From: a virus
Lineage: Duplodnaviria; Heunggongvirae; Uroviricota; Caudoviricetes
Length of the DNA stretch: 11,709 nt
IMG/VR virus record: IMGVR_UViG_2548876944_000019
Location: 1 to 11,709 of that record
Reading direction: 5' to 3' (one strand)
A program made the position numbers and the translations under genes. Position 1 is the stretch's first letter. Every line of letters starts with the position of its first letter. Positions 401 through 11,709 of this stretch are shown here, in pieces. The notes beneath the pieces were generated by a model, which did no database searches, was not told where the DNA came from, and was given only the letters and a program-made list of their open reading frames with translations.

Positions 401-441
401 ACTAATTAATATATTGTCAGACTCACAATATATTAATTAGT
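401..441. promoter_or_regulatory. Perfect 16-bp inverted repeat with 9-bp spacer, candidate operator
   Basis: ACTAATTAATATATTG (401-416), spacer TCAGACTCA (417-425), CAATATATTAATTAGT (426-441); the arms are exact reverse complements. It lies in the AT-rich intergenic region about 130 bp upstream of the 281-aa ORF. It is too AT-rich to be a stable terminator stem. Confidence 0.5.
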
Positions 442-1787: not shown

Positions 1788-1813
1788 TTTTCTAAAAGGT
1801 TGGTTTGGGAGAA
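1788..1813. other. Left inversion crossover site (gix/pix/hix-like, 26 bp), core TT at 1800-1801
   Basis: TTTTCTAAAAGG TT GGTTTGGGAGAA. The reverse complement (TTCTCCCAAACC AA CCTTTTAGAAAA) resembles the Din-family site pattern TTCxxxxAAACC-AA-GGTTTxxGAxAA recalled from hix/gix. It lies 55 bp upstream of the invertase start, as in Mu and e14. Confidence 0.6.
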
Positions 1814-2293
1814 GGCTCTGCATTACCTGTTGGTGTCCCTGTTCCGTGGCCTTCAGCCACCCCGCCGACAGGCTGGCTGAAATGCAACGGTGCGGCTTTT
1901 TCTGCTGAAGAATACCCGGAACTGGCAAAGGCTTACCCGACAAATAAATTGCCTGATTTACGCGGTGAGTTTATTCGTGGCTGGGATGACGGACGTGGAG
2001 TGGATAACGGAAGGGGATTATTAACGCTTCAGGACGGTGCGATTGTCAGTCATAACCACTATTGGGGAATCTGGACTTCACGAACTAACGACCAGACTCT
2101 GGGAAGTTTTTCAGGCACCACGATTTTAAAACAAATCACGCCCCTGTCTCCGGCCATTGACTTCGATAATTACCAAATTCCCAACCCGGCTATTACAGAG
2201 GGTGGTGTTGTTGCGGCAACGACTAAACCTGCAGGTGCGAATGAAACACGCCCACGAAATGTCGCTTTTAACTATATTGTGAGGGCTGCATAA
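1796..2293 (+). CDS. Alternative tail-fibre C-terminal (receptor-binding) segment, Sv'-like, without its own start codon
   Basis: The frame opens immediately after the TAA at 1793-1795. It has no ATG; the ORF track start at 1805 is TTG with a weak SD. It carries a tail-collar-like motif (GWLKCNGAAFSAEEYPELAKAYP). The stop TAA at 2291-2293 overlaps the ATG of the downstream Tfa gene. Confidence 0.7.
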   Translation, partial: KVGLGEGSALPVGVPVPWPSATPPTGWLKCNGAAFSAEEYPELAKAYPTNKLPDLRGEFIRGWDDGRGVDNGRGLLTLQDGAIVSHNHYWGIWTSRTNDQTLGSFSGTTILKQITPLSPAIDFDNYQIPNPAITEGGVVAATTKPAGANETRPRNVAFNYIVRAA

Positions 2294-2895
2294 TGAATAA
2301 CGCAGAATTAAACAGTGAATTAATTGCCACTATGGCAGGAGAAATTACTGTTTATAACTTTGACGTCATGAGTCGGGAGTATATTTCAGCTTCAACTGAA
2401 TATCTTGCTGTTGGTGTCGGCATTCCGGCATATTCCTGTTTAGATGCTCCAGGCACCTACAAAGCTGGTTATGCAATCTGCCGCTCTGCAGATTTTAACT
2501 CATGGGAATATGTACCAGACCATCGCGGTGAAATCGTCTATAACACCGAAACGGGAGACGCCAAAGAAATCACAACTCCGGGTGATTACCCCGAAAAAAC
2601 AACCACTATCGCCCCGTTAACGCCATACGATAAATGGGATGGTGAGAAATGGGTGACGGATACTGAGACACAGCATAGCGCCGCAGTAGACGCGGCAGAA
2701 GCACAACGTCAGTCACTGATTGATACTGCAATGGCTTCCATTAGTCTGATTCAACTGAAATTGCAGGCCGGGCGGAAGCTGATGCAGGCAGAGACCACCC
2801 GACTTAACACTGTGCTGGATTACATTGACGCGGTGACGGCAACAGATACCAGTACCGCGCCGGATGTCATCTGGCCTGAACTGCCGGAGGAGTAG
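2293..2895 (+). CDS. Tail-fibre assembly protein (Tfa/U'-type chaperone) paired with the alternative fibre tip
   Basis: 200 aa, coupled to the upstream Sv' frame by a TAATG overlap. The C-terminus (LDYIDAVTATDTSTAPDVIWPELPEE) is the conserved Tfa C-terminal motif. It sits convergent to the other Tfa gene. Confidence 0.8.
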   Translation: MNNAELNSELIATMAGEITVYNFDVMSREYISASTEYLAVGVGIPAYSCLDAPGTYKAGYAICRSADFNSWEYVPDHRGEIVYNTETGDAKEITTPGDYPEKTTTIAPLTPYDKWDGEKWVTDTETQHSAAVDAAEAQRQSLIDTAMASISLIQLKLQAGRKLMQAETTRLNTVLDYIDAVTATDTSTAPDVIWPELPEE

Positions 2896-3313
2896 GCCAT
2901 TCAATATCTGGCGCACTGGAAGTATCGACCAGTTCCAGTGCGTCCAGATAATCCAGCCACAAATTATATTGCGCCAGTTCGTCACCTTTCAGACGACCAA
3001 TAGCGGCTTTACCGGGCCACTGCTTACTATTGATATAATAGTTAGCCTGCTCAATACGGGACCTTTTTTCGGCGTCAGCAGTTCTAACAAGTTCTTCGTG
3101 AGTCGGTTTAGGTTCATCTACCCATTCAGGGAAGCCATCATTCCCTGCTGCACGTATCTTGCCATCCGGTGCATTTTCTGCTTTCCAGGAGATAAATCCG
3201 TCCTCATCAAAATCGACTCCCTCATCAGGCCATTGCCCGCTTGCCAGGTAGCTATCCTTAAGGGAGTAAGGGAAAAATTCGTTTGTAACTGCTGAGTATC
3301 TGTATTTGGTCAT
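2867..3313 (-). CDS. Tail-fibre assembly protein (Tfa/U-type chaperone) for the currently expressed fibre
   Basis: 148 aa, immediately downstream of the fibre gene (fibre stop codon 3316-3318, ATG at 3313). The C-terminus (LWLDYLDALELVDTSSAPDIEWPTPP) is the conserved Tfa motif. Confidence 0.85.
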   Translation of the reverse strand: MTKYRYSAVTNEFFPYSLKDSYLASGQWPDEGVDFDEDGFISWKAENAPDGKIRAAGNDGFPEWVDEPKPTHEELVRTADAEKRSRIEQANYYINSKQWPGKAAIGRLKGDELAQYNLWLDYLDALELVDTSSAPDIEWPTPPAVQAR

Positions 3314-3315
3314 AT

Positions 3316-3987
3316 TTATTTCCCTATGGCTATCCAGGCAATTTCTGCTCCTGGAGTGCTCCAGTTGGCAATTCGGATTGTTGAAAGATCAGCTGACGAC
3401 ACGCCAACTGGTTTTGAAGGTGAGGGATCTGAACCCCAGAACGAAGCAAGAACAATATAGCCTGAGGTAGTAAAAGGGATTGGCAGCGTCCTTACCGCAA
3501 TCTGTCCTGCCGCCATGGTTGTCCTCCCGCTCTGAATAATTGTCCCGTCTGGAAACTTTACCCACCCACTACCACTGGTCCATGCAGACATGTCTGGTAG
3601 TTGGTTAGCACCTGTTCCGACATCTCGTTTCGCCGCTTCGCCCAAACCAAGATTTGAGAGGGCCGTTTTCACCGTGCCATCCGATTTGATATCACCAAAC
3701 GGATTCTTGCGGCTCAGGTATTCAACAGCAAACCCCGATCCCAGCAATTCAACAAAACCGGGCAGATCACCATTATCAAGCACATCCCGTTGCGTTTTGT
3801 CACTTACAAACTGGGCCAGAGCTGCAGCAATAAAGCTGGCCTGCCGAATAACCTTATTGACTTGCGCACTGGATGCTTTCCCTGCTGTAAATCCGGATAA
3901 AAGCGCAGGCAACGCTTCCCATTCCTCCTGCGACATAACATTGGCATTTTTACCCGTTGCGAATGCTTTAAAGTCATTTTTTGCCAT
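3316..3987 (-). CDS. Tail-fibre protein (constant N-terminal part fused to the currently oriented variable C-terminal part)
   Basis: The ATG at 3987-3985 overlaps the TGA of the upstream gene (ATGA), so it is preferred over the in-frame ATG at 4005 given in the ORF track. The right crossover site lies in frame inside it (ALSNLGLGE). It is followed by a Tfa gene. Confidence 0.8.
3637..3662. other. Right inversion crossover site (inverted relative to the left site), core AA at 3649-3650
   Basis: TTCGCCCAAACC AA GATTTGAGAGGG. Its reverse complement matches the left site at 13 of 14 positions across core plus inner half (TTGGTTTGGG[C/A]GAA). It lies inside the tail-fibre gene at the constant/variable junction. 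Confidence 0.6.
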
Positions 3988-4667
3988 CAGAGTAATACTC
4001 CCCATGCCCCTACATCAAAACCACTGATGAATTCGTTATCCATATCAAAACCAAAAAATTTTGAACCTTCCGATGGGGTTTCCACCGAAGGTGTTTCAAT
4101 GCCACCCGCCCACACCCCGGCGGCTTTTACTGTGAGATATCCCTGTTTAATTGCAGCAATTAACTCACGCGATACATCTGAAATATCAGTATCAGGAAAG
4201 ACCCAGACCGATATCGTCATGTCCTGGTTATCGACAATCTGCATTCGCAGCCCGGATCCTGCTGTTGCCGCGTCAAGAATTGCCGGAAGCGAATCATTCC
4301 GTCCGTCCCAGTTATTAATCGCAATCTTCGCTTTAAGAATGACACGATAAGTTTCATCGCTGAGATACATGTATCCAGAATCAGGATCATATGGCCCCTG
4401 CCATACCCCCTGATCATATCCAAGCCCGTCGGTATCCCAGCTGAAATAGACACCTGAGATAGGCTGGCTGACAACACGGCTACGTCCGATCCACAATCCC
4501 AGAATGTCAAGTTGCACACCAACCGCAGAGTCAATATCAAATGCAGTAATCAGCCCTCTGGTGGCAGCCGCAACATCAATAAGTGGCCGGGTCATCAGAT
4601 CAACATGCGCAAGAAATTTAGGTTTGGTGGCGTGGTAGTTCGTGATTAGTTCGGTGTATTTGCTCAT
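3987..4667 (-). CDS. Baseplate/tail protein, gpI-like (Mu gp48 / P2 gpI position)
   Basis: 226 aa; sits between the gpJ-like gene and the tail fibre; ATGA overlaps at both ends. Assigned by position and size, not by a recognised motif. Confidence 0.6.
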
Positions 4668-5863
4668 GACTCCACCGTTATAACGATATTTTCCGGGGTA
4701 CAGGACGCAGATTCGTTGTATCTGATATCAATGTTTGATGACGACAAAGCCCCCGGGGATTTCCCAATCGTCAGTTCCTGAATATCGTAATAGCGTGCAT
4801 TACCGCCACTCACCACGCCAAGATTCGCCGGTGAGTAAATGCGACTTAAAAGGACCGAATTACCAATCATCAGACTATTGATATAGTCGGAAATAGCCTG
4901 CTGGATCTGTTGCCCTATCTGTGAGGTATAACCCGTAAAAACTTTTAATTTAATCCGGGCATAAACAGGTACATCACTGGAACGCGAGAATTTGATTACA
5001 TGGGGATTGCCGTATTTATCCGGAACCGTAACGGATGTTGTACCGTGAGTGGCTGTCCCCTGGCCTTTATTCCCTCTGATAGCCTGAGCAATATCCGTCA
5101 CATCACCGCCATCCACAATTACAGCAACAGAGTGTGGCGGTAACCCGTTACCGTCCTCCGAACCAGTATCGTTTTCATAGAGTTTGTGGCGGGTTACACC
5201 GGTAACATTAGAAACGGCACCATCCAGTGCTTCAAATGGGGTTATTGATGGCAACGCAACACTTTGCGACTGGCGGATACGTAACTCCGCATCAGTTTCT
5301 GCTGGAGTGCCTACAGTAGCTGCAGCAGGATTGGTTACCGAAACCCAGCCACGGGTTGGCGTATTAATTTCAGTGATAGTTCCAGCCAGCGCCGCCACTG
5401 CACCACTGACGGAACATTTTGCGGTCGCCATCACTGTACCATCCACGCCGACCACCACTGAAGCAGGCAAACGCCATATCACATTATTACTGTCTTTCAC
5501 GCTGCCATTAATGATGGTTGTTCCGGCAGTTCCTGTAAGAAGCAAATCAACCGTAGAGTTCGTCGCGCCTTTACGTGAAATACCATTTATTTTCACGTTG
5601 CTGGTCAGTGCAGCCCCATAGCCGGTTGCCGGTGAAAAACAGTTGTAGACAGTTATCGCCATATTATTGGCATCATGAATCGCCAGCGCCATCAGAGCCA
5701 CCATCTGGCCGTCTTTGCTGTCCGGTTCGAGGTAGGCATCACTGCCATAAACCTGCTGAAAATAGCTAATCAGGGTGCTGAGTATCGTCTGATAATCAGG
5801 CGCACTGATCCCCTCCGCGGTTACCTTTGCAGATAAACCGAGAGAATCAAGGTTCAGAGCCAT
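4664..5863 (-). CDS. Baseplate protein, gpJ-like (Mu gp47 position)
   Basis: 399 aa; follows the gpW-like gene with a TAATG overlap and precedes the gpI-like gene with an ATGA overlap. Assigned by synteny. Confidence 0.6.
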   Translation of the reverse strand: MALNLDSLGLSAKVTAEGISAPDYQTILSTLISYFQQVYGSDAYLEPDSKDGQMVALMALAIHDANNMAITVYNCFSPATGYGAALTSNVKINGISRKGATNSTVDLLLTGTAGTTIINGSVKDSNNVIWRLPASVVVGVDGTVMATAKCSVSGAVAALAGTITEINTPTRGWVSVTNPAAATVGTPAETDAELRIRQSQSVALPSITPFEALDGAVSNVTGVTRHKLYENDTGSEDGNGLPPHSVAVIVDGGDVTDIAQAIRGNKGQGTATHGTTSVTVPDKYGNPHVIKFSRSSDVPVYARIKLKVFTGYTSQIGQQIQQAISDYINSLMIGNSVLLSRIYSPANLGVVSGGNARYYDIQELTIGKSPGALSSSNIDIRYNESASCTPENIVITVES

Positions 5864-6216
5864 TACGCCTCCGATGTAACAGTCGTTATTCCATAGAGAG
5901 TGTCGATTTCAGCGGAAAACATGACACGTCGGGTCGTGGTATCCACCGTCGTATTGAAAGAGAGGATTGATTTAACGCCCCGCGTTTCCAGAATGCGTTT
6001 TCTGATCGCCAGGTTGTAAGTTTCCGGTTTTTGCCTGCCCAGCACGGACTGGATCCACGGAGTCCCCTCGGTGGTGTCGAGAAACCATTGCCCATACCAT
6101 AATTCGAATCGCGTTTTTACCGCCTGCGCCACGGCCTCCGGTGAGTTAATCAGCCAGGTGTCATCACCGCTGCCAAAGGTATAATCGCCATCGGCGTCTT
6201 CACGTCTGTATCGCAT
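5863..6216 (-). CDS. Baseplate wedge protein, gpW/gp25-like
   Basis: 117 aa, a size typical of gpW/gp25. Its C-terminal region resembles P2 gpW as I recall it. It sits between the spike and the gpJ-like gene with overlapping start/stop codons. Confidence 0.55.
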   Translation of the reverse strand: MRYRREDADGDYTFGSGDDTWLINSPEAVAQAVKTRFELWYGQWFLDTTEGTPWIQSVLGRQKPETYNLAIRKRILETRGVKSILSFNTTVDTTTRRVMFSAEIDTLYGITTVTSEA

Positions 6217-6971
6217 CAGTTAGGCGCTCCTGTGTTACCGCCGCCGGTCTGTACTCCGCCGTGCGTGTGCGTCATCAGGCTCTTACCACCAGCTTTTACA
6301 TCGTTAGTCACCGTGACAGGGCCAAGCATCGTCGCGGTGCCGCCGCTTTCGCCCATCCCCTGAGAGAGATTCCCGTTTATTGTCACGTTGCCGTTTAGCG
6401 TGATGGTGGGTGATGTGATCGTGGTTCCTCCTTCTGCTGTCGCCGTCAACGCGCCGGGAGTTTTAACCGTGATATTATGGCCTGCGGCCACTTCCACAAA
6501 CGCAGCGCCATCATCAGTACGCAGCTGCGCGCCACTGGTGCTTATTCCGCTTATTTTCTGCGCCTGAGACTGCGGCCCGACGATACAGAAAGCATCCGAT
6601 AAATCATGCACCCGGTCGTCGACAGGCTCCTGCACCCCGCCGTTCTGCCACCAGAAATCGATGCAGCGGTCGGCGAAAATCACCAGGCATTCATCCCCGG
6701 CTTTAACCGGAAAAGTCAACGTACAGCCTCCACCGCGCGGAAATACCACTGGCACATCCACCAGCAACGGGTAATTTTTGGTAATGCGGTTACCGTCGTT
6801 ATCCTTTTCAACCGAACGGATAGCTGGCTGCACAACCGCCGTCACCGCGTCGGGATCGAATGACTGAACAATGCCAGGCAAGGCGACACGGATCTGGTTC
6901 TTTGTTGTTTCCCGTTCAGATTTGAATGTTTCGGCAAGGTCGCCGCTGCGGGTCTGGTCAGATACTGCCAT
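6216..6971 (-). CDS. Baseplate central spike protein, gpV-like
   Basis: 251 aa with a C-terminal beta-helix-like repeat run (ITVKTPGALTATAEGGTTITSPTITLNGNVTINGNL) and a THTHGG (HxH) apex motif near the C-terminus, as in gpV-type spikes. Confidence 0.75.
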   Translation of the reverse strand: MAVSDQTRSGDLAETFKSERETTKNQIRVALPGIVQSFDPDAVTAVVQPAIRSVEKDNDGNRITKNYPLLVDVPVVFPRGGGCTLTFPVKAGDECLVIFADRCIDFWWQNGGVQEPVDDRVHDLSDAFCIVGPQSQAQKISGISTSGAQLRTDDGAAFVEVAAGHNITVKTPGALTATAEGGTTITSPTITLNGNVTINGNLSQGMGESGGTATMLGPVTVTNDVKAGGKSLMTHTHGGVQTGGGNTGAPN

Positions 6972-6990
6972 TTAGTAGGCTCCAGAAAGC

Positions 6991-7016
6991 AAAAAACCCG
7001 CCGGGTGGCGGGTTTT
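6991..7016 (-). terminator. Rho-independent terminator downstream of the lipoprotein gene, inside the tail operon
   Basis: Perfect 10-bp stem AAAACCCGCC / GGCGGGTTTT (6993-7002 and 7007-7016) with a 4-nt loop. On the minus strand the hairpin is followed by a T-rich run (TTTTTTGCTTTCT). It lies between the lipoprotein stop (7037) and the spike start (6971). Confidence 0.7.
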
Positions 7017-7036
7017 ATGTGACTAATTTGATCTTT

Positions 7037-7762
7037 TCAGTTTATAAGCCCCATCTTACCGGCGCTTCGATAGTTAATTACATCGCCTGAAGAGCCGCAA
7101 GGCACAGCTACAGTCGACATTTTGACAAATCCTTTACCGCCCTGCTTTTGGCATAAAGTGGCATGCATTTTTGCTAAACGCGCAGCATGGCCAAAATCAA
7201 TTTTGGTTCCGTAAGTTGAATCTCGTAGAGCTGCTTTTTTTGCAATTCCGGTAATATTTTTGTCTTTAATTACAGATGCAAACAAACTCAAATCATTTCC
7301 AATTTGATTGAAGCAAGTACGATTAATATCAACATCGGCATACGCTGAAATGCGTTTGCAATCTGAGATCTGAGAAAGCACAGATGTGTTAACTAGTTGC
7401 AAATTTAATTTGTAGTCACCGACATAGGTATAAACTTTGTTAGGGTCCGTGGTTCCCGGATAACGAGTTACGAATGGAATGCTGTTGTACGCATCTCGCA
7501 AAGATTCTGCCCCCTTACTTGTAAGCTCGTTCCCAACACCAGCAACGATAACCTCTGGATGTGAAACTTCAAATTGAGACTTTTCTTCGCGCTGTATTTG
7601 AAGCCTGCTTTTCTGGCTCTCCTCAACTTGCTTATCGTACGCTTGTTTTTCTTCATTTTTTTGGGATAGCCATTTTTCCTGCGCTTTAGCACCATTAGGA
7701 TCCCAACTACATGAAGTTAAAAAAAGAGAAAATACGATTGTGGTTATCGCAAGCCTGCTCAC
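7037..7762 (-). CDS. Predicted outer-membrane lipoprotein (241 aa), moron inserted in the baseplate operon
   Basis: GTG start at 7762 with GAGG 9 nt upstream. Signal peptide ends in lipobox LTSC with Ser at +2. A charged linker (KAQEKWLSQKNEEKQAYDKQVEESQK...) is followed by a four-Cys globular region. The gene is visibly AT-richer than the flanking tail genes and is followed by its own terminator. Confidence 0.75.
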   Translation of the reverse strand: MSRLAITTIVFSLFLTSCSWDPNGAKAQEKWLSQKNEEKQAYDKQVEESQKSRLQIQREEKSQFEVSHPEVIVAGVGNELTSKGAESLRDAYNSIPFVTRYPGTTDPNKVYTYVGDYKLNLQLVNTSVLSQISDCKRISAYADVDINRTCFNQIGNDLSLFASVIKDKNITGIAKKAALRDSTYGTKIDFGHAARLAKMHATLCQKQGGKGFVKMSTVAVPCGSSGDVINYRSAGKMGLIN

Positions 7763-7764
7763 TA

Positions 7765-8829
7765 TTATGCACCTCGATTCATCGCTGACTGGCTAGGAAT
7801 ATCACTAGCACCTCGAGCAAAGCACATCATGTCCATGTACCACGCCTGGCCCCTTGTGTCACCAGTGTACATAATCCCGCGCACAATATAAACGCCATCC
7901 GTTGCGATGCTGGCAGGTTGTGCTGTGGTGCCGCTGAGCGTGATATTACCGTCCGTGTTCTGGTCGGTGATCTGCCCACCAGCCATCGCGATATCATTGT
8001 TCGACAGCGCGGTGCGGTACACGGAAGCCTGATCCAGCTGAATAAGCCCGTTAACCCGGATGTTCGGATTAATCAGCGCACGGACGTTTACACCGTTGCC
8101 GATAGTCTGCTGCGGCATGCCAATAAGCCCGGTGGCGCTGTTGAGCACAATCGCGTCGTGAACATACTCGTTATTCGCCACCATCTGGCGCTGACCGTCC
8201 ACAAATTGCCATGTTGCGCCACATTGTCCGGCCACGTTATCCATAAGATGCCGTGTCATGCCGAACAGCACCCGCCCTCGAGGGAATACGGTAGCAGGCA
8301 TTTCAGGCGTCAGTCCTTCGGTCGCGCCTTTGGCCTCAAAGTCTTTCATCAGCGCACGGTTCACATCTGCGACCGTGTAACCGGCCGCCAGCGTCTGCGA
8401 GGTTATACTGGTGGCAAATGCCAGATCCGTATCTGCTGCCTGAATCAGGACATAGGAATCAATAGGGCTGTCTTTTCCTGTGACCGAGTAGCGAATTTCT
8501 CCGCTGAAAATCAGCCCGTAGTTGCGGCCATCACTCTGGCCCACATCTGCCGCGTCGACTTCACGCACGGTCCCGACGTCGCTTGCCGCCACCTCCGGCG
8601 CGATACCGTCGTAACCGGCAATCAGCCGCACTTTCGAAAACTCCTGCCCGGTAATTCGGTTCACAGTATCTGCCGAGAGGTTATAAATTTTGATAGTCCC
8701 TACCCGGGACGCGCTGCTGATGTTGAACCAGTCGATCGTAAAGGTGACTTTGAAATCACTTAGCTCAATTCCCTGACCGTTCCCGTCCACAAGCTGCAGC
8801 TCGAAATGTCTCATCCAGTTCTGTGACAT
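7765..8829 (-). CDS. Baseplate hub / tail protein (Mu gp44 / P2 gpD-like by position and size)
   Basis: 354 aa; ATG at 8829. Located between the small tail assembly ORFs and the spike, where hub proteins sit in Mu-type tails. No motif verified. Confidence 0.55.
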   Translation of the reverse strand: MSQNWMRHFELQLVDGNGQGIELSDFKVTFTIDWFNISSASRVGTIKIYNLSADTVNRITGQEFSKVRLIAGYDGIAPEVAASDVGTVREVDAADVGQSDGRNYGLIFSGEIRYSVTGKDSPIDSYVLIQAADTDLAFATSITSQTLAAGYTVADVNRALMKDFEAKGATEGLTPEMPATVFPRGRVLFGMTRHLMDNVAGQCGATWQFVDGQRQMVANNEYVHDAIVLNSATGLIGMPQQTIGNGVNVRALINPNIRVNGLIQLDQASVYRTALSNNDIAMAGGQITDQNTDGNITLSGTTAQPASIATDGVYIVRGIMYTGDTRGQAWYMDMMCFARGASDIPSQSAMNRGA

Positions 8830-8831
8830 GC

Positions 8832-9134
8832 TTACTCCGTTGATACCAGTAAATGACTGCGACCGCCCAGATCAGTTTTCGTGGGATAATCCTGTGTGTT
8901 GTCATCGCAGACCACCACCAGCTTAAAACCAAGCCCCATACAGGCGTACTGCGCCAGCAGATCAGCGCCAGTGACGAGAGGAATACCGGAGATTACCGGC
9001 TCTCCTCTGTCGTTCTGCAGGTCCATAATCCAGTAAGGATCGCGCCATATGATGCTAATCCGCCAGGTGACACCACCCAGGACGATGCTGAACTGCTGGT
9101 TGTCCGCTGTCAGCGGAATTTCCTGAATTGTCAT
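8832..9134 (-). CDS. Small tail/baseplate assembly protein (100 aa), function unassigned
   Basis: ATG at 9134 overlaps the TAA of the upstream ORF; it ends 2 nt before the hub ATG. Typical coupled small tail gene. Confidence 0.5.
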   Translation of the reverse strand: MTIQEIPLTADNQQFSIVLGGVTWRISIIWRDPYWIMDLQNDRGEPVISGIPLVTGADLLAQYACMGLGFKLVVVCDDNTQDYPTKTDLGGRSHLLVSTE

Positions 9135-9721
9135 TAGCCGCCTCCCAGTAATGACGCCACGTTACCCGTGATGCTTTTCAGCAGTGAAGTATCTGGAGGC
9201 TTTGTGGTTTTGTTACCGCTATTCTGTACCGCCGACGTGCTGGCCCCTTCCTTCATGTTGGTTTTATCCGCGACGGTAATCTTCTGTGTCCGGGAGATAA
9301 TGACCTCCCTCAGGGTGAGGACGGCGGACAGGACGTTTTCGGTTGTCTTGTCCGTCGTTACTTCCAGCGCCCGGATCAACATGTTGCTGTACAGCCGTTT
9401 ACCGGTTACCACATCGAAGGGGATACAGCTTTCCTGCAGATCCAGTAGCTCCTGATACGTCTGCTGAGGACTCAGGCCGAGCAGGCTGGTAGCCGTCAGA
9501 TTACTGGCAAAATCCAGCAATGCGCCGCCACCGGCGAAACCAACCTCCATCACCACTTCTGACGGTTTTTTATAGGCATGATCAGCGACAGCGGCCCCGA
9601 CCTCTACCGGATGCTCTGTTATTTCAAGCATATCTGTATGCTTCTCTGAAATAACAACACTGGGAACAATCATTCCTATTTTTCTGCTCTGCTGATGAAA
9701 AAGTGTAGAGAGAATATCCAC
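9134..9721 (-). CDS. Tail assembly protein (195 aa), function unassigned
   Basis: GTG start at 9721 overlapping the tape-measure stop (TAGTG), with an SD-like GGTGAGGG just upstream. An internal ATG 16 codons downstream is an alternative start. Confidence 0.5.
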   Translation of the reverse strand: MDILSTLFHQQSRKIGMIVPSVVISEKHTDMLEITEHPVEVGAAVADHAYKKPSEVVMEVGFAGGGALLDFASNLTATSLLGLSPQQTYQELLDLQESCIPFDVVTGKRLYSNMLIRALEVTTDKTTENVLSAVLTLREVIISRTQKITVADKTNMKEGASTSAVQNSGNKTTKPPDTSLLKSITGNVASLLGGG

Positions 9722-11709
9722 TAACCCACCCTCACCTGATTACTTCGCATGACCTGAGCATTTGCAGACTGTTGCCGACGTGCAACCTCATTACCGACAG
9801 CGTGCGGATCTCCGCCACCGTAAATGTGGTAAGTATTTTGCTGGTTAACCTCTGTCATTTTGCCACTAATTCCCGCCACGGCAGCCTTATTAATCAGCTC
9901 TCGAGAATAGATATTTCTTCCATTCTCATGCTGGATAATGCTGCTCATCAATGCTGACATGGTTTGCGGATCGCTCATATTCAGGGCAGCCCGGGGATCC
10001 ACTCCCAGTCGTTGCGATACAGCCCTGATATACGCAGTTGTGTTGTTATTATCAGACGCAGGTGCCCAGGTAGAGATAATTTTCTCCACACTGTTTATTC
10101 CCCGTCCGGCGTACAGCATTAACTGACGAGCAAGAGCCCGTAATCCATCAAAAGCAGTTTCAAATCTGGCAAATCGCCCGCCCGGGCGTTCAAGAGAAGC
10201 CCCTGCCTGACCAGCAAAATTAAGGTTTCCCGGATTGTTATTCCGTTCTCCTCGTTTCGTAGCCTGTGCATATTGTTCCGGCTCATCATCACCAAACCAG
10301 CCGCGTACCGTCCGGCCCACACTGCGGGGATCGAATCCCCAGTGCTCTTTAATCCAGTCGGCAGTACTGTTAGCGCTGTCTGTAACCATCGGCATCGCTG
10401 ACGGATTTTCGCTGCCCTGATTAAGTATCTGTTTGCCGATGCTGACGGCATCAGCCCAGCGGCCATCTTTGATAGCGTTGAGCAGGTCGGCGATCATGTT
10501 CAGCATTTTGCTGAATTCGCCCATCTGGTCGATGAAGTTGCTGAAATCCCACTTCAGGGACCATGATTTGGGGTCAATATTGAGCAGTTTCGCCAGCGCT
10601 TTCACCAGGTCGTTAACGGTCGTTTTAAGGTCACGAACCATCTTCAGCGCGGCATCGACCTCCGGTTTCCACTTGCCCCAGTCAATCAGGCTGTCGCCGC
10701 CTTCCTTCCAGGTCTGATAGTCCTCCCACAGGAGGGCAATACCCGCCGCCAGCGCGGTAATGAGGCCAATCGGCGACATCCAGAACGTACTGTTCAGAAT
10801 GCGCAGCGCAATCGTCAGTGCGCCAAACAGCGAGATCAACTCCCGCGTTTGCTTATCCAGCGATTGCCACCAGGTGATAAGGCCTGATGTCCCCTCAATC
10901 AGTCTGAAGAACAGCCGCCCGATAATATCCCCGAGCGCCAGAATGCCTTTTATGGCTTTCGTCAGGGTCTGCTCGATACGAGGGAAGTTGTCCAGGATAT
11001 GGCGGCGCAGGGTGTCCAGCGAACCCGCAAGCCCCCCCGCAAGATTAGAGCCGATTTTGTCACGGGCCATGCCTGCCATCGAGCCAAACTCACGCAGGGA
11101 GGTCATAAATTTGTTGGAGCTTCTGGCCGCCTCGTCAGCATTGAAGCCGATAGCTTTCGCCATTGCGCTGTACTGCCCGGAGAAGCCACCCACACCCCGG
11201 CGCATCGCCATAAGGGTATTTTCGTCAATGCCCAGCATCTGCGCATACTGGTTAGCCCGGTAATACGGCATGCTGCTGAGTTTCTGTCCAACGCCCGTAA
11301 AAATAGCGGCCATGTCACGCATGTTACCGCTGGCATCACGGGTCTGTACGCCCAGGCGATTCAGAAAGCCTTCTGCACCGGGATTGTTACGAATAAACCG
11401 GGATAGGCTTTCCAGAGAAGATCGCGCAGCGTCCACGCTGCCGCCAACCTGCGAAACCGCATAGCCAATAGACTGAATTCCCTGGACTGTCGCGCCGGTG
11501 CGCTGTGACGCCCAGTAAAGATTATCCAGGCCGGAGGCGATCTTAGCCGTGAAGGCCACCACGGACAACGCAGCTCCTTCAACAGCCAGCCCCATTTTGA
11601 TGACATTTGCAGTTGTACCGGCGAGGACAGAACCGAACTTTTTCGCTCCTGCATCATCCACACTGAAGCCAAGCGAGACGAGGAAATCTTTAATAGTTTC
11701 AGCGTTCAT
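9721..11709 (-). CDS. Tail tape measure protein (662 aa as given)
   Basis: Long, alpha-helical, Ala/Gly-rich protein with a central hydrophobic stretch (ISLFGALTIALRILNSTFWMSPIGLITALAAGIALLW), immediately upstream of the baseplate genes. The ATG sits at the window edge (11709-11707), so completeness cannot be proven. Confidence 0.8.
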   Translation of the reverse strand: MNAETIKDFLVSLGFSVDDAGAKKFGSVLAGTTANVIKMGLAVEGAALSVVAFTAKIASGLDNLYWASQRTGATVQGIQSIGYAVSQVGGSVDAARSSLESLSRFIRNNPGAEGFLNRLGVQTRDASGNMRDMAAIFTGVGQKLSSMPYYRANQYAQMLGIDENTLMAMRRGVGGFSGQYSAMAKAIGFNADEAARSSNKFMTSLREFGSMAGMARDKIGSNLAGGLAGSLDTLRRHILDNFPRIEQTLTKAIKGILALGDIIGRLFFRLIEGTSGLITWWQSLDKQTRELISLFGALTIALRILNSTFWMSPIGLITALAAGIALLWEDYQTWKEGGDSLIDWGKWKPEVDAALKMVRDLKTTVNDLVKALAKLLNIDPKSWSLKWDFSNFIDQMGEFSKMLNMIADLLNAIKDGRWADAVSIGKQILNQGSENPSAMPMVTDSANSTADWIKEHWGFDPRSVGRTVRGWFGDDEPEQYAQATKRGERNNNPGNLNFAGQAGASLERPGGRFARFETAFDGLRALARQLMLYAGRGINSVEKIISTWAPASDNNNTTAYIRAVSQRLGVDPRAALNMSDPQTMSALMSSIIQHENGRNIYSRELINKAAVAGISGKMTEVNQQNTYHIYGGGDPHAVGNEVARRQQSANAQVMRSNQVRVG

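What the first reader, a model, noticed from the sequence alone, without database searches (positions are those of the whole stretch)
6991..7016. Strong intrinsic terminator in the middle of the tail operon
A perfect 10-bp GC-rich stem with a U-tract on the tail-gene strand sits between the lipoprotein gene and the spike gene. The downstream genes for spike, wedge, gpJ-like, gpI-like, fibre and Tfa would need read-through (late-gene antitermination) or an internal promoter to be expressed. It could also insulate lysogenic expression of the moron from the structural genes. The hairpin is also roughly terminator-like on the plus strand.
Basis: seen in the sequence. Interest (0 to 1): 0.5.

Follow-up and report, generated by a model that had tools for sequence, protein, structure and literature searches.

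The report
Conserved terminator before phage spike gene
A textbook transcription-stop hairpin sits just before the tail-spike gene of a lambda-like prophage; it is a conserved backbone feature marking the downstream edge of a slot where related phages carry many different accessory genes, and it is an ordinary kind of element that late antitermination is expected to override.

Summary
On the minus (tail-gene) strand, 7016->6993 forms a perfect 10-bp stem (AAAACCCGCC/GGCGGGTTTT, loop ACCC). It is followed by a U-rich tail, then GGAG, then the spike ATG at 6971. Shuffles give 0.075 such stems per window.

The hairpin belongs to the phage backbone, not to the lipoprotein gene. The same hairpin precedes the spike gene in relatives carrying at least 21 unrelated upstream cargo sequences. 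It also occurs in 10 loci where the hub-spike slot is empty. It is absent in all 17 loci where the preceding gene abuts the spike gene. Loops vary, the stem is kept, and one relative has an unrelated hairpin at the same place.

Relatives (Salmonella phage SEN34, an E. coli prophage with the same cargo) are lambdoid. They encode Q-like antiterminators, with promoter and terminator patterns just downstream, and carry further terminators in the late operon.

Best reading: a functional intrinsic terminator that stops Q-independent transcription from entering the spike-to-fibre genes and is read through by Q-modified polymerase. Termination and read-through are inferred, not measured. No promoter for the lipoprotein gene was found, so its 'moron' status is unproven. 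This is a new member of a known kind; interest is low to moderate.

The parts
6993..7016 (-). Terminator stem-loop: AAAACCCGCC / ACCC / GGCGGGTTTT, 10 perfect pairs with a 6-bp all-G-C core
   Evidence: Sequence; top terminator-like hit; dG -16.0 kcal/mol; expected 0.075 such stems per shuffled window; core conserved in over 90% of 43 relatives
6984..6996 (-). U-rich tract: six consecutive U (6996->6991, four of them shared with the stem), then GCUUUCU
   Evidence: Sequence; five T columns of the tract invariant in alignment A1
6980..6983 (-). Shine-Dalgarno GGAG of the spike gene, 8 nt before the ATG; there is no room for a promoter between the hairpin and the gene
   Evidence: Sequence; GAG columns at least 90% conserved
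6216..6971 (-). Baseplate central spike gene (251 aa), the first gene downstream of the terminator
   Evidence: Pfam PF18352 N-domain 1.4e-43 plus GpV Apex motif; PGAP 'membrane-puncturing spike protein' in relatives
7037..7762 (-). 241-aa lipoprotein gene (signal peptide with lipobox LTSC). It is low in GC. The GTG start lies 2 nt after the hub stop. It is the cargo of the slot in this window.
   Evidence: Translation; no Pfam or PHROG hit; GC 35-43% against 54-58% in the flanks; only 15 homologue clusters, all unnamed or 'lipoprotein'
7015..7821 (-). Variable slot as defined by comparison. Homology to relatives with other cargo stops at 7822 (19 codons before the hub stop) and resumes at 7014/7015, the 5' foot of the hairpin.
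   Evidence: blastn of the window against L002, L003, L005, L006, L009, L027 and L036
7765..8829 (-). Baseplate hub gene (354 aa), upstream border of the slot
   Evidence: PHROG 196 baseplate hub 2.5e-87
2867..6216 (-). Remaining terminator-distal late genes: gpW-like wedge 5863-6216, gpJ-like 4664-5863, DUF2612/gpI-like 3987-4667, fibre 3316-4005, Tfa 2867-3313. They are tightly packed with no predicted promoter on this strand.

Best explanation
The hairpin is a functional Rho-independent terminator that belongs to the conserved backbone of a family of lambdoid, myovirus-tailed temperate phages (SEN34/Brunovirus-like). It sits 15-24 nt upstream of the spike ATG. It forms the fixed downstream border of a hypervariable accessory-gene slot between the baseplate hub and spike genes.

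Inferred mechanism: RNA polymerase that has not been modified by the phage Q-like antiterminator stops here. Such polymerase would start at cargo promoters, at spurious promoters in AT-rich cargo DNA, or by leak-through in a lysogen. It therefore does not transcribe the spike, wedge, fibre and Tfa genes. In lytic growth, polymerase modified by Q at the late promoter reads through this terminator and the other terminators of the late operon, so all tail genes are expressed from one transcript.

Shown here: the anatomy, the non-chance status, the conservation, the independence from cargo, and the lambdoid/Q context in relatives. Inferred: actual termination, its efficiency, and Q-dependent read-through.
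For: Anatomy and statistics.

Backbone element, not cargo element:
- The identical core directly precedes the spike gene in E. coli prophages carrying DUF4282, YafO toxin-antitoxin or lipoprotein cargo, in phage SEN34 and in vB_EcoM-606R2.
- 88 of 89 IMG/VR contigs with the exact 24-mer have it before the spike start: 87 with a detectable spike relative, plus L143 with the identical start sequence. Their upstream sequences fall into 21 unrelated clusters.
- Homology to relatives with other cargo resumes exactly at the foot of the hairpin.

Survey of 58 loci found by spike homology, that is, independently of the hairpin:
- A terminator is present in 38 loci: 28 with cargo and 10 with an empty 38-68-nt gap. 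Empty gaps were verified.
- It is present in 38 of the 41 loci that have an intergenic gap of at least 30 nt before the spike gene.
- It is absent in all 17 loci where the hub or the small protein gene abuts the spike gene.

Structure under selection:
- Loops differ (ACCC, GGAT, TTCG, CGAG, TACG and others) while the stem is kept.
- Compensatory variants occur: CCCACC/GGTGGG in L022 and CCGCC/GGCGG in L047 and L050. L063 has an unrelated hairpin, GGCCGCT/AGTGGCC, at the same place.
- 83.8% of cells are paired against 40-56% when the partner column is slid; 4 pairs show changes on both sides; 0 of 500 shuffles reach the observed values.

There is exactly one strong late-strand terminator per slot, at its 3' edge.

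Q context:
- SEN34 has a Q-like gene (PHROG 127), then terminator-like hairpins, then lysis, head and tail genes on one strand, with a further terminator after Rz.
- The E. coli CE0021a prophage (same cargo, 96.7% identical) has a Q-like gene (PHROG 753). A 10/12 promoter-like site lies at its 3' end and a terminator-like hairpin about 60 nt downstream, with two more terminators before the holin gene.
- No promoter-like site lies on the late strand between the hairpin and the end of the tail genes.

Literature:
- Intra-operon terminators occur in the phage L late operon, and one suggested role is stopping transcription that starts without antitermination (PMC8022706).
- Morons carry their own promoter and terminator and differ in GC content from their surroundings (PMC3594210).
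Against: - There are no transcript data, so termination efficiency and read-through are untested.
- The window does not contain the regulatory region. The Q-like antiterminator is seen only in relatives, and only by profile annotation and sequence patterns.
- For this window no sigma-70-like promoter precedes the lipoprotein gene, and its GTG start lies 2 nt after the hub stop. There may be no lysogenic cargo transcript to stop here.
- The terminator persists in 10 empty slots and next to opposite-strand cargo (L019, L022, L045, L060). 'Ending the moron transcript' therefore cannot be its only role.
- The stem sequence CCCGC/GCGGG varies little, so covariation support is thin. It rests on a handful of sequences.
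Confidence: 0.7

Rival explanations
1. Partial terminator (attenuator) that acts even on antiterminated late transcription. It would lower mRNA for the terminator-distal genes (spike, wedge, fibre, Tfa) relative to the upstream head, sheath, tube and tape-measure genes, and so tune stoichiometry.
For: The terminator is retained in 10 empty slots where there is no cargo transcript to stop. Published suggestions go the same way. [quoted passage not shown] In P22, the moron upstream of the tailspike gene is thought to affect how often late transcription reaches that gene (PMC2629481).
Against: 12 related phages have the hub stop overlapping the spike start, and 5 more have the small gene abutting it, with no hairpin at all. 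The baseplate therefore assembles without such attenuation. Q-type antitermination is, by established knowledge of lambda, efficient at intrinsic terminators.
Confidence: 0.12
2. An RNA-level element rather than a transcription stop. The hairpin would protect the upstream mRNA segment from 3' exonucleases after processing. Alternatively it would sit at the 5' side of the spike ribosome-binding site to uncouple or modulate spike translation.
For: The distance from stem to ATG is constrained (15-24 nt in all 38 loci), and the hairpin lies 8-9 nt upstream of the Shine-Dalgarno sequence. A weak second hairpin that includes the Shine-Dalgarno sequence appears in the minimum-energy fold.
Against: The invariant run of at least five T right after the stem is the signature of termination; a mere stability hairpin does not need it. 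The second hairpin is weak and its sequence is not conserved in relatives. There is no match to any Rfam family.
Confidence: 0.08
3. A recombination landing pad: the hairpin itself is the site at which cargo cassettes are captured or exchanged by structure- or sequence-specific recombination, and termination is secondary.
For: The homology break falls exactly at the 5' foot of the hairpin in every comparison, and the left break is equally sharp at 7822. At least 21 cargo types lie next to one identical hairpin. The window's flanks are 98-99% identical to a prophage with different cargo but only 96.7% identical to one with the same cargo, which indicates recent cassette exchange. The loop of L001 and L004 looks flipped relative to the window.
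Against: There is only one hairpin per slot, with none at the left edge or between cargo genes. No recombinase gene lies next to the slot. Sharp borders are expected anyway from homologous recombination in conserved flanks plus selection on the terminator, ribosome-binding site and spike unit.
Confidence: 0.05
4. A chance palindrome, or a decaying relic of a former insertion, with no present function.
For: No expression data exist. The stem is a very common enterobacterial terminator sequence. One locus (L051) shows a degenerate hairpin without a T-tract.
Against: Only 0.075 such stems are expected per shuffled window, and none with a T-rich tail. The hairpin is conserved at a fixed position in 38 of 58 independently found loci whose spike proteins are down to 46% identical. 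Loops vary, stem changes are compensatory, and L063 has a non-homologous replacement.
Confidence: 0.05

Closest known systems
Intrinsic terminators inside lambdoid late operons, read through by Q-modified RNA polymerase (lambda tR' and downstream terminators; predicted intra-operon terminators of phage L, PMC8022706)
   Same: Canonical GC stem plus U-tract on the late strand, inside a single long late operon. The phage family encodes Q-like antiterminators, and other terminators lie in the same operon.
   Different: Here the terminator has a fixed, conserved position between two baseplate genes across many genera, and it borders a cargo slot. Read-through has not been measured. The Q-like proteins of the relatives belong to sequence types (PHROG 127 and 753) that I did not compare with lambda Q.
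Moron terminators (HK97/HK022 morons: promoter-gene-terminator units in tail operons; PMC3594210)
   Same: The hairpin lies downstream of a low-GC accessory gene inserted between genes that are adjacent in related phages. Relatives carry promoter-like sites in front of their cargo, for example upstream of the YafO pair.
   Different: The terminator is not carried by the cargo. It stays identical while the cargo changes, and it is present in empty slots. The cargo gene of this window shows no promoter of its own.
[quoted passage not shown]
   Same: A single hypervariable accessory slot inside the late operon, just upstream of the host-contacting spike gene. Its content ranges from absent to several genes, and it may affect how much late transcription reaches the spike gene.
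   Different: The virion type is different (myovirus baseplate hub and spike against podovirus genes 16 and 9), and the genes are unrelated. The conserved terminator border described here was not reported for that slot in the text I read.
Accessory and defence hotspots of P2-like phages (old/tin and Z/fun; summarised in bioRxiv 10.1101/2024.10.15.618418)
   Same: Fixed slots flanked by conserved structural genes, one of them next to a baseplate gene. Cargo includes toxin-antitoxin and defence-like genes: YafO, Fic/Doc and T5orf172 here.
   Different: Different phage family and position. The cargo here is mostly uncharacterised, and no defence function was tested.

Membership tests
Rho-independent (intrinsic) terminator | G+C-rich stem-loop (about 5-14 bp stem, 3-8 nt loop) | tested here: met
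   10 perfect pairs with a 6-bp all-G-C core and a 4-nt loop; dG -16.0 kcal/mol
Rho-independent (intrinsic) terminator | Run of U immediately 3' of the stem on the transcribed strand | tested here: met
   UUUUUU GCUUUCU on the minus strand; five T columns of the tract invariant in 43 relatives
Rho-independent (intrinsic) terminator | Located in non-coding DNA downstream of a stop codon, on the strand of the flanking genes | tested here: met
   20 nt after the stop at 7037-7039 and 21 nt before the spike ATG; all flanking genes are on the minus strand
Rho-independent (intrinsic) terminator | Transcript 3' ends map to the U-tract; downstream expression falls in a reporter assay | not testable with these tools
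   No transcript data are available for this or any related prophage; literature searches returned no transcript mapping for these phages.
Moron (independently transcribed accessory unit in a phage operon) | Inserted between genes that are adjacent in related phages | tested here: met
   The hub stop overlaps or abuts the spike start in 12 related loci
Moron (independently transcribed accessory unit in a phage operon) | Base composition differs from the neighbouring genes | tested here: met
   GC 35-43% in 7100-7800 against 54-58% in the hub and spike genes
Moron (independently transcribed accessory unit in a phage operon) | Own promoter upstream of the accessory gene | tested here: not met
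   No sigma-70-like site on the minus strand near 7760-8000. The GTG start lies 2 nt after the hub stop, with a Shine-Dalgarno sequence inside the hub gene. This is a consensus scan only, so a weak or non-sigma-70 promoter is not excluded.
Moron (independently transcribed accessory unit in a phage operon) | Own terminator that travels with the accessory gene | tested here: not met
   The terminator stays with the backbone. The same hairpin lies next to at least 21 different cargos and in 10 empty slots, and the homology break is at the foot of the hairpin.
Moron (independently transcribed accessory unit in a phage operon) | Expressed from the repressed prophage | not testable with these tools
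   Needs RNA or protein data from a lysogen.
Q-dependent lambdoid late operon | Q-type antiterminator gene just upstream of the lysis and morphogenesis genes, all on one strand | tested here: inconclusive
   This region is not in the window. It is met in relatives: SEN34_60 (PHROG 127, 1.3e-91) and the CE0021a DUF1133 protein (PHROG 753, 7e-81), each followed by lysis, head and tail genes on one strand.
Q-dependent lambdoid late operon | Late promoter followed closely by a terminator (the PR'-tR' arrangement) | tested here: inconclusive
   Pattern matches only, and only in relatives. L008 has a promoter-like site at 32036->32007 (10/12) and a hairpin plus T-run at 31945->31929. SEN34 has hairpins at 38689 and 38868 after Q.
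Integron-like cassette site (attC-type hairpin) | One recombination hairpin per cassette and an adjacent site-specific recombinase | tested here: not met
   There is a single hairpin per slot whatever the number of cargo genes, and none at the left border. No recombinase is annotated next to the slot.

The most novel reading that the evidence does not exclude
The conserved hairpin is more than a terminator. It would be the anchor of a cassette-exchange system: a structure- or sequence-specific landing pad at whose 5' foot new accessory genes are captured. This would explain the base-exact border shared by at least 21 cargo types, the hairpins kept in empty slots, and the apparently flipped loop in near-identical backbones.
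Probability: 0.05. Interest if true: 0.7.

Novelty: new member of a known kind. Interest (0 to 1): 0.28.

Why it matters
As a terminator it adds nothing new in principle. Lambdoid late operons are known to contain intrinsic terminators that Q-modified polymerase ignores, and morons are known to be insulated by terminators.

The comparative result does have practical value. The short motif ACCCGC-loop-GCGGGTTTTT followed by GGAG and the spike start is a precise, searchable marker for the downstream edge of an accessory-gene hotspot.

- The junction occurs in 217 of 5426 complete E. coli genomes.
- It also occurs in prophages of many other Enterobacterales.
- 37 cargo protein clusters were found in 38 loci, mostly uncharacterised, and some are toxin-antitoxin or defence-like.

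The terminator persists in empty slots. This makes the locus a clean natural system for asking what intra-operon terminators do in phage late operons, a role that published genome analyses describe as unknown.

Tried and rejected
- Rfam scan of the whole window at gathering thresholds: no family matched, so this is not a described structured RNA.
- Promoter search for the lipoprotein gene, and for an internal promoter downstream of the hairpin: nothing on the late strand. This leaves 'moron' status unproven and makes an internal promoter unlikely.
- Pfam and PHROG scans of the 241-aa lipoprotein, plus a search of the 5.8-billion-sequence protein database: no domain, and only 15 unnamed clusters. 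Its function stays unknown. The PGAP label 'HMG-box' on one copy has no Pfam support.
- Integron-like reading: rejected, because there is one hairpin per slot and no recombinase.
- Bidirectional terminator as a conserved property: rejected, because the A-tract is not conserved.
- RNAalifold on the alignment recovers only 4 of the pairs, with a negligible covariation term. The stem sequence is too conserved for strong covariation statistics. The support for structure comes from loop variability, a few compensatory variants and one non-homologous replacement.
- Literature searches found no transcript mapping for SEN34-like phages and nothing on the STY1065/STY2022 small protein.
- My own terminator script missed L049, where an over-extended stem moved the tail window. 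The hairpin there is visible in the alignment, and I counted it by eye.

Full report
**Observation**

Reading the minus strand gives, after the stop codon of the upstream gene (7039-7037), 20 nt and then the stem-loop. The 5' arm is AAAACCCGCC (7016-7007), the loop is ACCC (7006-7003), and the 3' arm is GGCGGGTTTT (7002-6993). Then follow TT, GCTTTCT, GGAG (6983-6980) and ATG (6971-6969).

The stem has ten perfect pairs: six G-C and four A-U. Six consecutive U lie at its 3' side. The pattern scan ranks it first among all terminator-like sites of the window. ViennaRNA gives -16.0 kcal/mol for the stem-loop and -18.7 in a 65-nt context (z = -3.4).

In 200 dinucleotide-preserving shuffles, perfect stems of at least 10 bp occur 0.075 times per window, and never with a T-rich tail.

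On the plus strand the tail is TTTTATGTG, which is weakly terminator-like. This depends on an A-tract that most relatives lack.

**Context**

All genes from 11709 down to 2867 lie on the minus strand and form a contractile-tail and baseplate module:

| Coordinates | Gene |
|---|---|
| 9721-11709 | tape measure, with a transglycosylase region |
| 9134-9721 | Dit-like protein |
| 8832-9134 | plug |
| 7765-8829 | hub |
| 7037-7762 | 241-aa protein |
| 6993-7016 | the hairpin |
| 6216-6971 | central spike (N-domain plus apex motif) |
| 5863-6216 | gpW-like wedge |
| 4664-5863 | gpJ-like |
| 3987-4667 | DUF2612 |
| 3316-4005 | fibre |
| 2867-3313 | Tfa |

The 241-aa protein has a signal peptide with lipobox LTSC. 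It has no Pfam or PHROG match and only 15 unnamed homologue clusters. Its GC content is 35-43%, against 54-58% in the flanks. Its GTG start lies 2 nt after the hub stop, and no sigma-70-like site precedes it.

**The hairpin belongs to the backbone, not to the cargo**

The region matches chromosomal prophages in 351 of 5426 complete E. coli genomes, and also phages such as Salmonella phage SEN34 (Brunovirus). Relatives carry different genes between hub and spike:

- a small lipoprotein plus a DUF4282 protein (L002);
- a small secreted protein plus an antitoxin-like gene and a YafO toxin (L003);
- two small ORFs (SEN34);
- other combinations.

All of them have the same ACCCGCCACCCGGCGGGTTTTTTGCTTTCTGGAGCC directly before the spike ATG.

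Pairwise blastn shows that homology to different-cargo relatives ends at window 7822, inside the hub gene 19 codons before its stop. It resumes at 7014/7015, the 5' foot of the hairpin. The window's flanks are 98.0% and 99.2% identical to L002, which has different cargo. Identity to L001, which has the same cargo, is only 96.7%. The cargo has therefore been exchanged recently on a nearly identical backbone.

An exact search for the 24-mer in IMG/VR found 89 contigs. In 88 of them it precedes the spike start. Their upstream 300 nt fall into 21 unrelated clusters. The junction itself occurs in 217 of 5426 complete E. coli genomes.

**A survey that does not depend on the hairpin**

Searching one genome per species with the spike protein gave 58 usable loci, with spike identity from 46 to 98% and hosts from many Enterobacterales.

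| Slot state | Loci | Terminator |
|---|---|---|
| Hub stop overlaps or abuts the spike ATG | 12 | none |
| Small secreted protein gene (PHROG 3443) abuts the spike gene | 5 | none |
| Cargo present | 28 | all 28 |
| Empty gap of 38-68 nt between hub and spike | 10 | all 10 (checked) |
| Degenerate hairpin, no T-run | 1 | none |
| Pseudomonas loci with an opposite-strand gene | 2 | none |

A terminator is thus present in 38 of the 41 loci that have an intergenic gap before the spike gene. It is absent from all 17 loci without a gap. The stem end always lies 15-24 nt from the ATG.

Each slot has exactly one strong late-strand terminator, at its 3' edge. Slot contents are diverse: 37 protein clusters in 38 loci, some on the opposite strand. 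They include Fic/Doc, T5orf172 and tRNA_anti-like domains, as well as YafO and DUF4282.

**Structure conservation**

The alignment holds 43 distinct sequences. The core CCCGC...GCGGGTTTTT is more than 90% conserved, while the loop varies freely (ACCC, GGAT, TTCG, CGAG, TACG, AATA and others).

- L022 has CCCACC/GGTGGG.
- L047 and L050 have CCGCC/GGCGG.
- L006 has a G.U pair.
- L063 has an unrelated hairpin, GGCCGCT/AGTGGCC, at the same position, followed by the same CTTTCTGGAGCC.

For the 10-pair helix, 83.8% of cells pair, against 40-56% when partners are slid. Four pairs show changes on both sides, and no shuffle reaches the observed values. RNAalifold's covariation term is negligible because the stem hardly varies. 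I therefore weight the loop variability and the L063 replacement more heavily than the statistics.

No Rfam family matches.

**How downstream genes would be expressed**

Only 21 nt separate the stem from the spike ATG. No promoter-like site lies on the late strand from the hairpin to the end of the tail genes. Read-through is therefore needed.

SEN34 is lambdoid. It has CI/Cro/CII-like, O/P-like and Nin genes, and a Q-like antiterminator (PHROG 127). These are followed by terminator-like hairpins, the lysis genes, another strong terminator, and then terminase, head and tail genes on one strand.

The E. coli CE0021a prophage carries the same lipoprotein cargo. It has a Q-like protein (DUF1133, PHROG 753), a 10/12 promoter-like site at the end of that gene, and a hairpin plus T-run about 60 nt downstream. 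Two more terminators precede the holin gene. In its 20 kb of structural genes, the hub-spike terminator is the only strong one.

This is the arrangement of lambda-type late operons, which 'are turned on by Q antitermination' (PMC2629481). It is established for lambda that Q-modified polymerase reads through downstream terminators; I take this from general knowledge and did not test it.

**Interpretation**

The best-supported reading is a functional intrinsic terminator fixed in the backbone at the downstream edge of a hub-spike accessory slot. It would stop polymerase that did not start at the Q-controlled late promoter, and Q-modified polymerase would override it.

This matches one of the two roles proposed for the intra-operon terminators of phage L, whose 'roles are not known' (PMC8022706). 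It also parallels the variable moron slot just 5' of the P22 tailspike gene (PMC2629481).

The classical moron description is own promoter, own terminator and deviant GC content (PMC3594210). It fits the family only partly. The terminator does not travel with the cargo, and this window's lipoprotein gene shows no promoter.

Because the hairpin also persists in empty slots, three rival roles remain open:
- an attenuator role in setting expression of the distal genes;
- an RNA-stability role;
- much less likely, a role as a cargo landing pad.

**Verdict**

The element is an ordinary kind of feature, and I class it as a new member of a known kind.

The useful extra finding is that the hairpin is a conserved, searchable border of a hypervariable accessory-gene slot, present in about 4% of complete E. 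coli genomes and across Enterobacterales.

All functional statements (termination, efficiency, Q-dependent read-through, lysogenic expression of the cargo) are inferences that need transcript mapping or reporter assays.

Noticed in passing
window 401-441: Perfect 17-bp AT-rich inverted repeat, ACTAATTAATATATTGT-CAGACTC-ACAATATATTAATTAGT. It is the only other long perfect palindrome in the window. Promoter-like hits overlap it on both strands, and it lies upstream of an unknown 281-aa ORF (569-1414, +). It may be an operator or a recombination site.
   Followed up: no
window 1805-2895 (+) against 2867-4005 (-): A second tail-fibre C-terminal fragment (1805-2293) and a second Tfa (2293-2895) lie on the opposite strand, convergent with the fibre and Tfa of the late operon. 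This looks like an invertible host-range segment of the Mu G / P1 C type. The relative CE0021a has a recombinase pseudogene beside its tail fibre assembly gene.
   Followed up: partly
window 7765-7821 (the last 19 codons of the hub gene): The 3' end of the hub gene is swapped together with the cargo. Homology to every different-cargo relative stops at 7822, not at the hub stop codon.
   Followed up: partly
L001 and L004 hairpin loop against window 7003-7006: Prophages with the same lipoprotein cargo have loop GGAT where the window has ACCC. The reverse complement of ACCC is GGGT, so the loop looks inverted between near-identical backbones. The palindromic stem would hide such a flip.
   Followed up: no
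L002 2825-3166 and the equivalent position in 31 of 38 non-empty slots: A conserved secreted protein or lipoprotein of about 113 aa (PHROG 3443, function unknown; PGAP 'STY1065/STY2022 family') follows the hub gene in most relatives and sometimes abuts the spike gene without a terminator. The window has an unrelated 241-aa lipoprotein at that position. L025 (379 aa) shares the window protein's C-terminal part. L059 (288 aa) appears, by eye, to join an L025-like N-terminal part to a PHROG 3443-like C-terminal part. This suggests domain shuffling among these lipoproteins.
   Followed up: partly
L063 3951-4003 (Apirhabdus apintestini): At the same position, before the same CTTTCTGGAGCC and a 98%-identical spike protein, the usual hairpin is replaced by an unrelated one (AAAAGGCCGCT-AATA-AGTGGCCTTTT).
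   Followed up: partly
window 9721-11709 (-): The C-terminal third of the tape measure protein (aa 442-649) matches lytic transglycosylase and endolysin profiles, so the tape measure probably carries a cell-wall-degrading domain.
   Followed up: no
L061 (320-bp contig labelled Bacillus sp.) and L020 (labelled Chryseobacterium sp.): Enterobacterial prophage sequence (spike 98% and 69% identical) sits in assemblies labelled as unrelated phyla. These are probably contamination or mislabelling.
   Followed up: no
L062 1671-3995 (Apirhabdus): The hub-spike slot contains IS21-like transposase fragments (judged by eye from the ORF translations), so insertion sequences also land in this slot.
   Followed up: no
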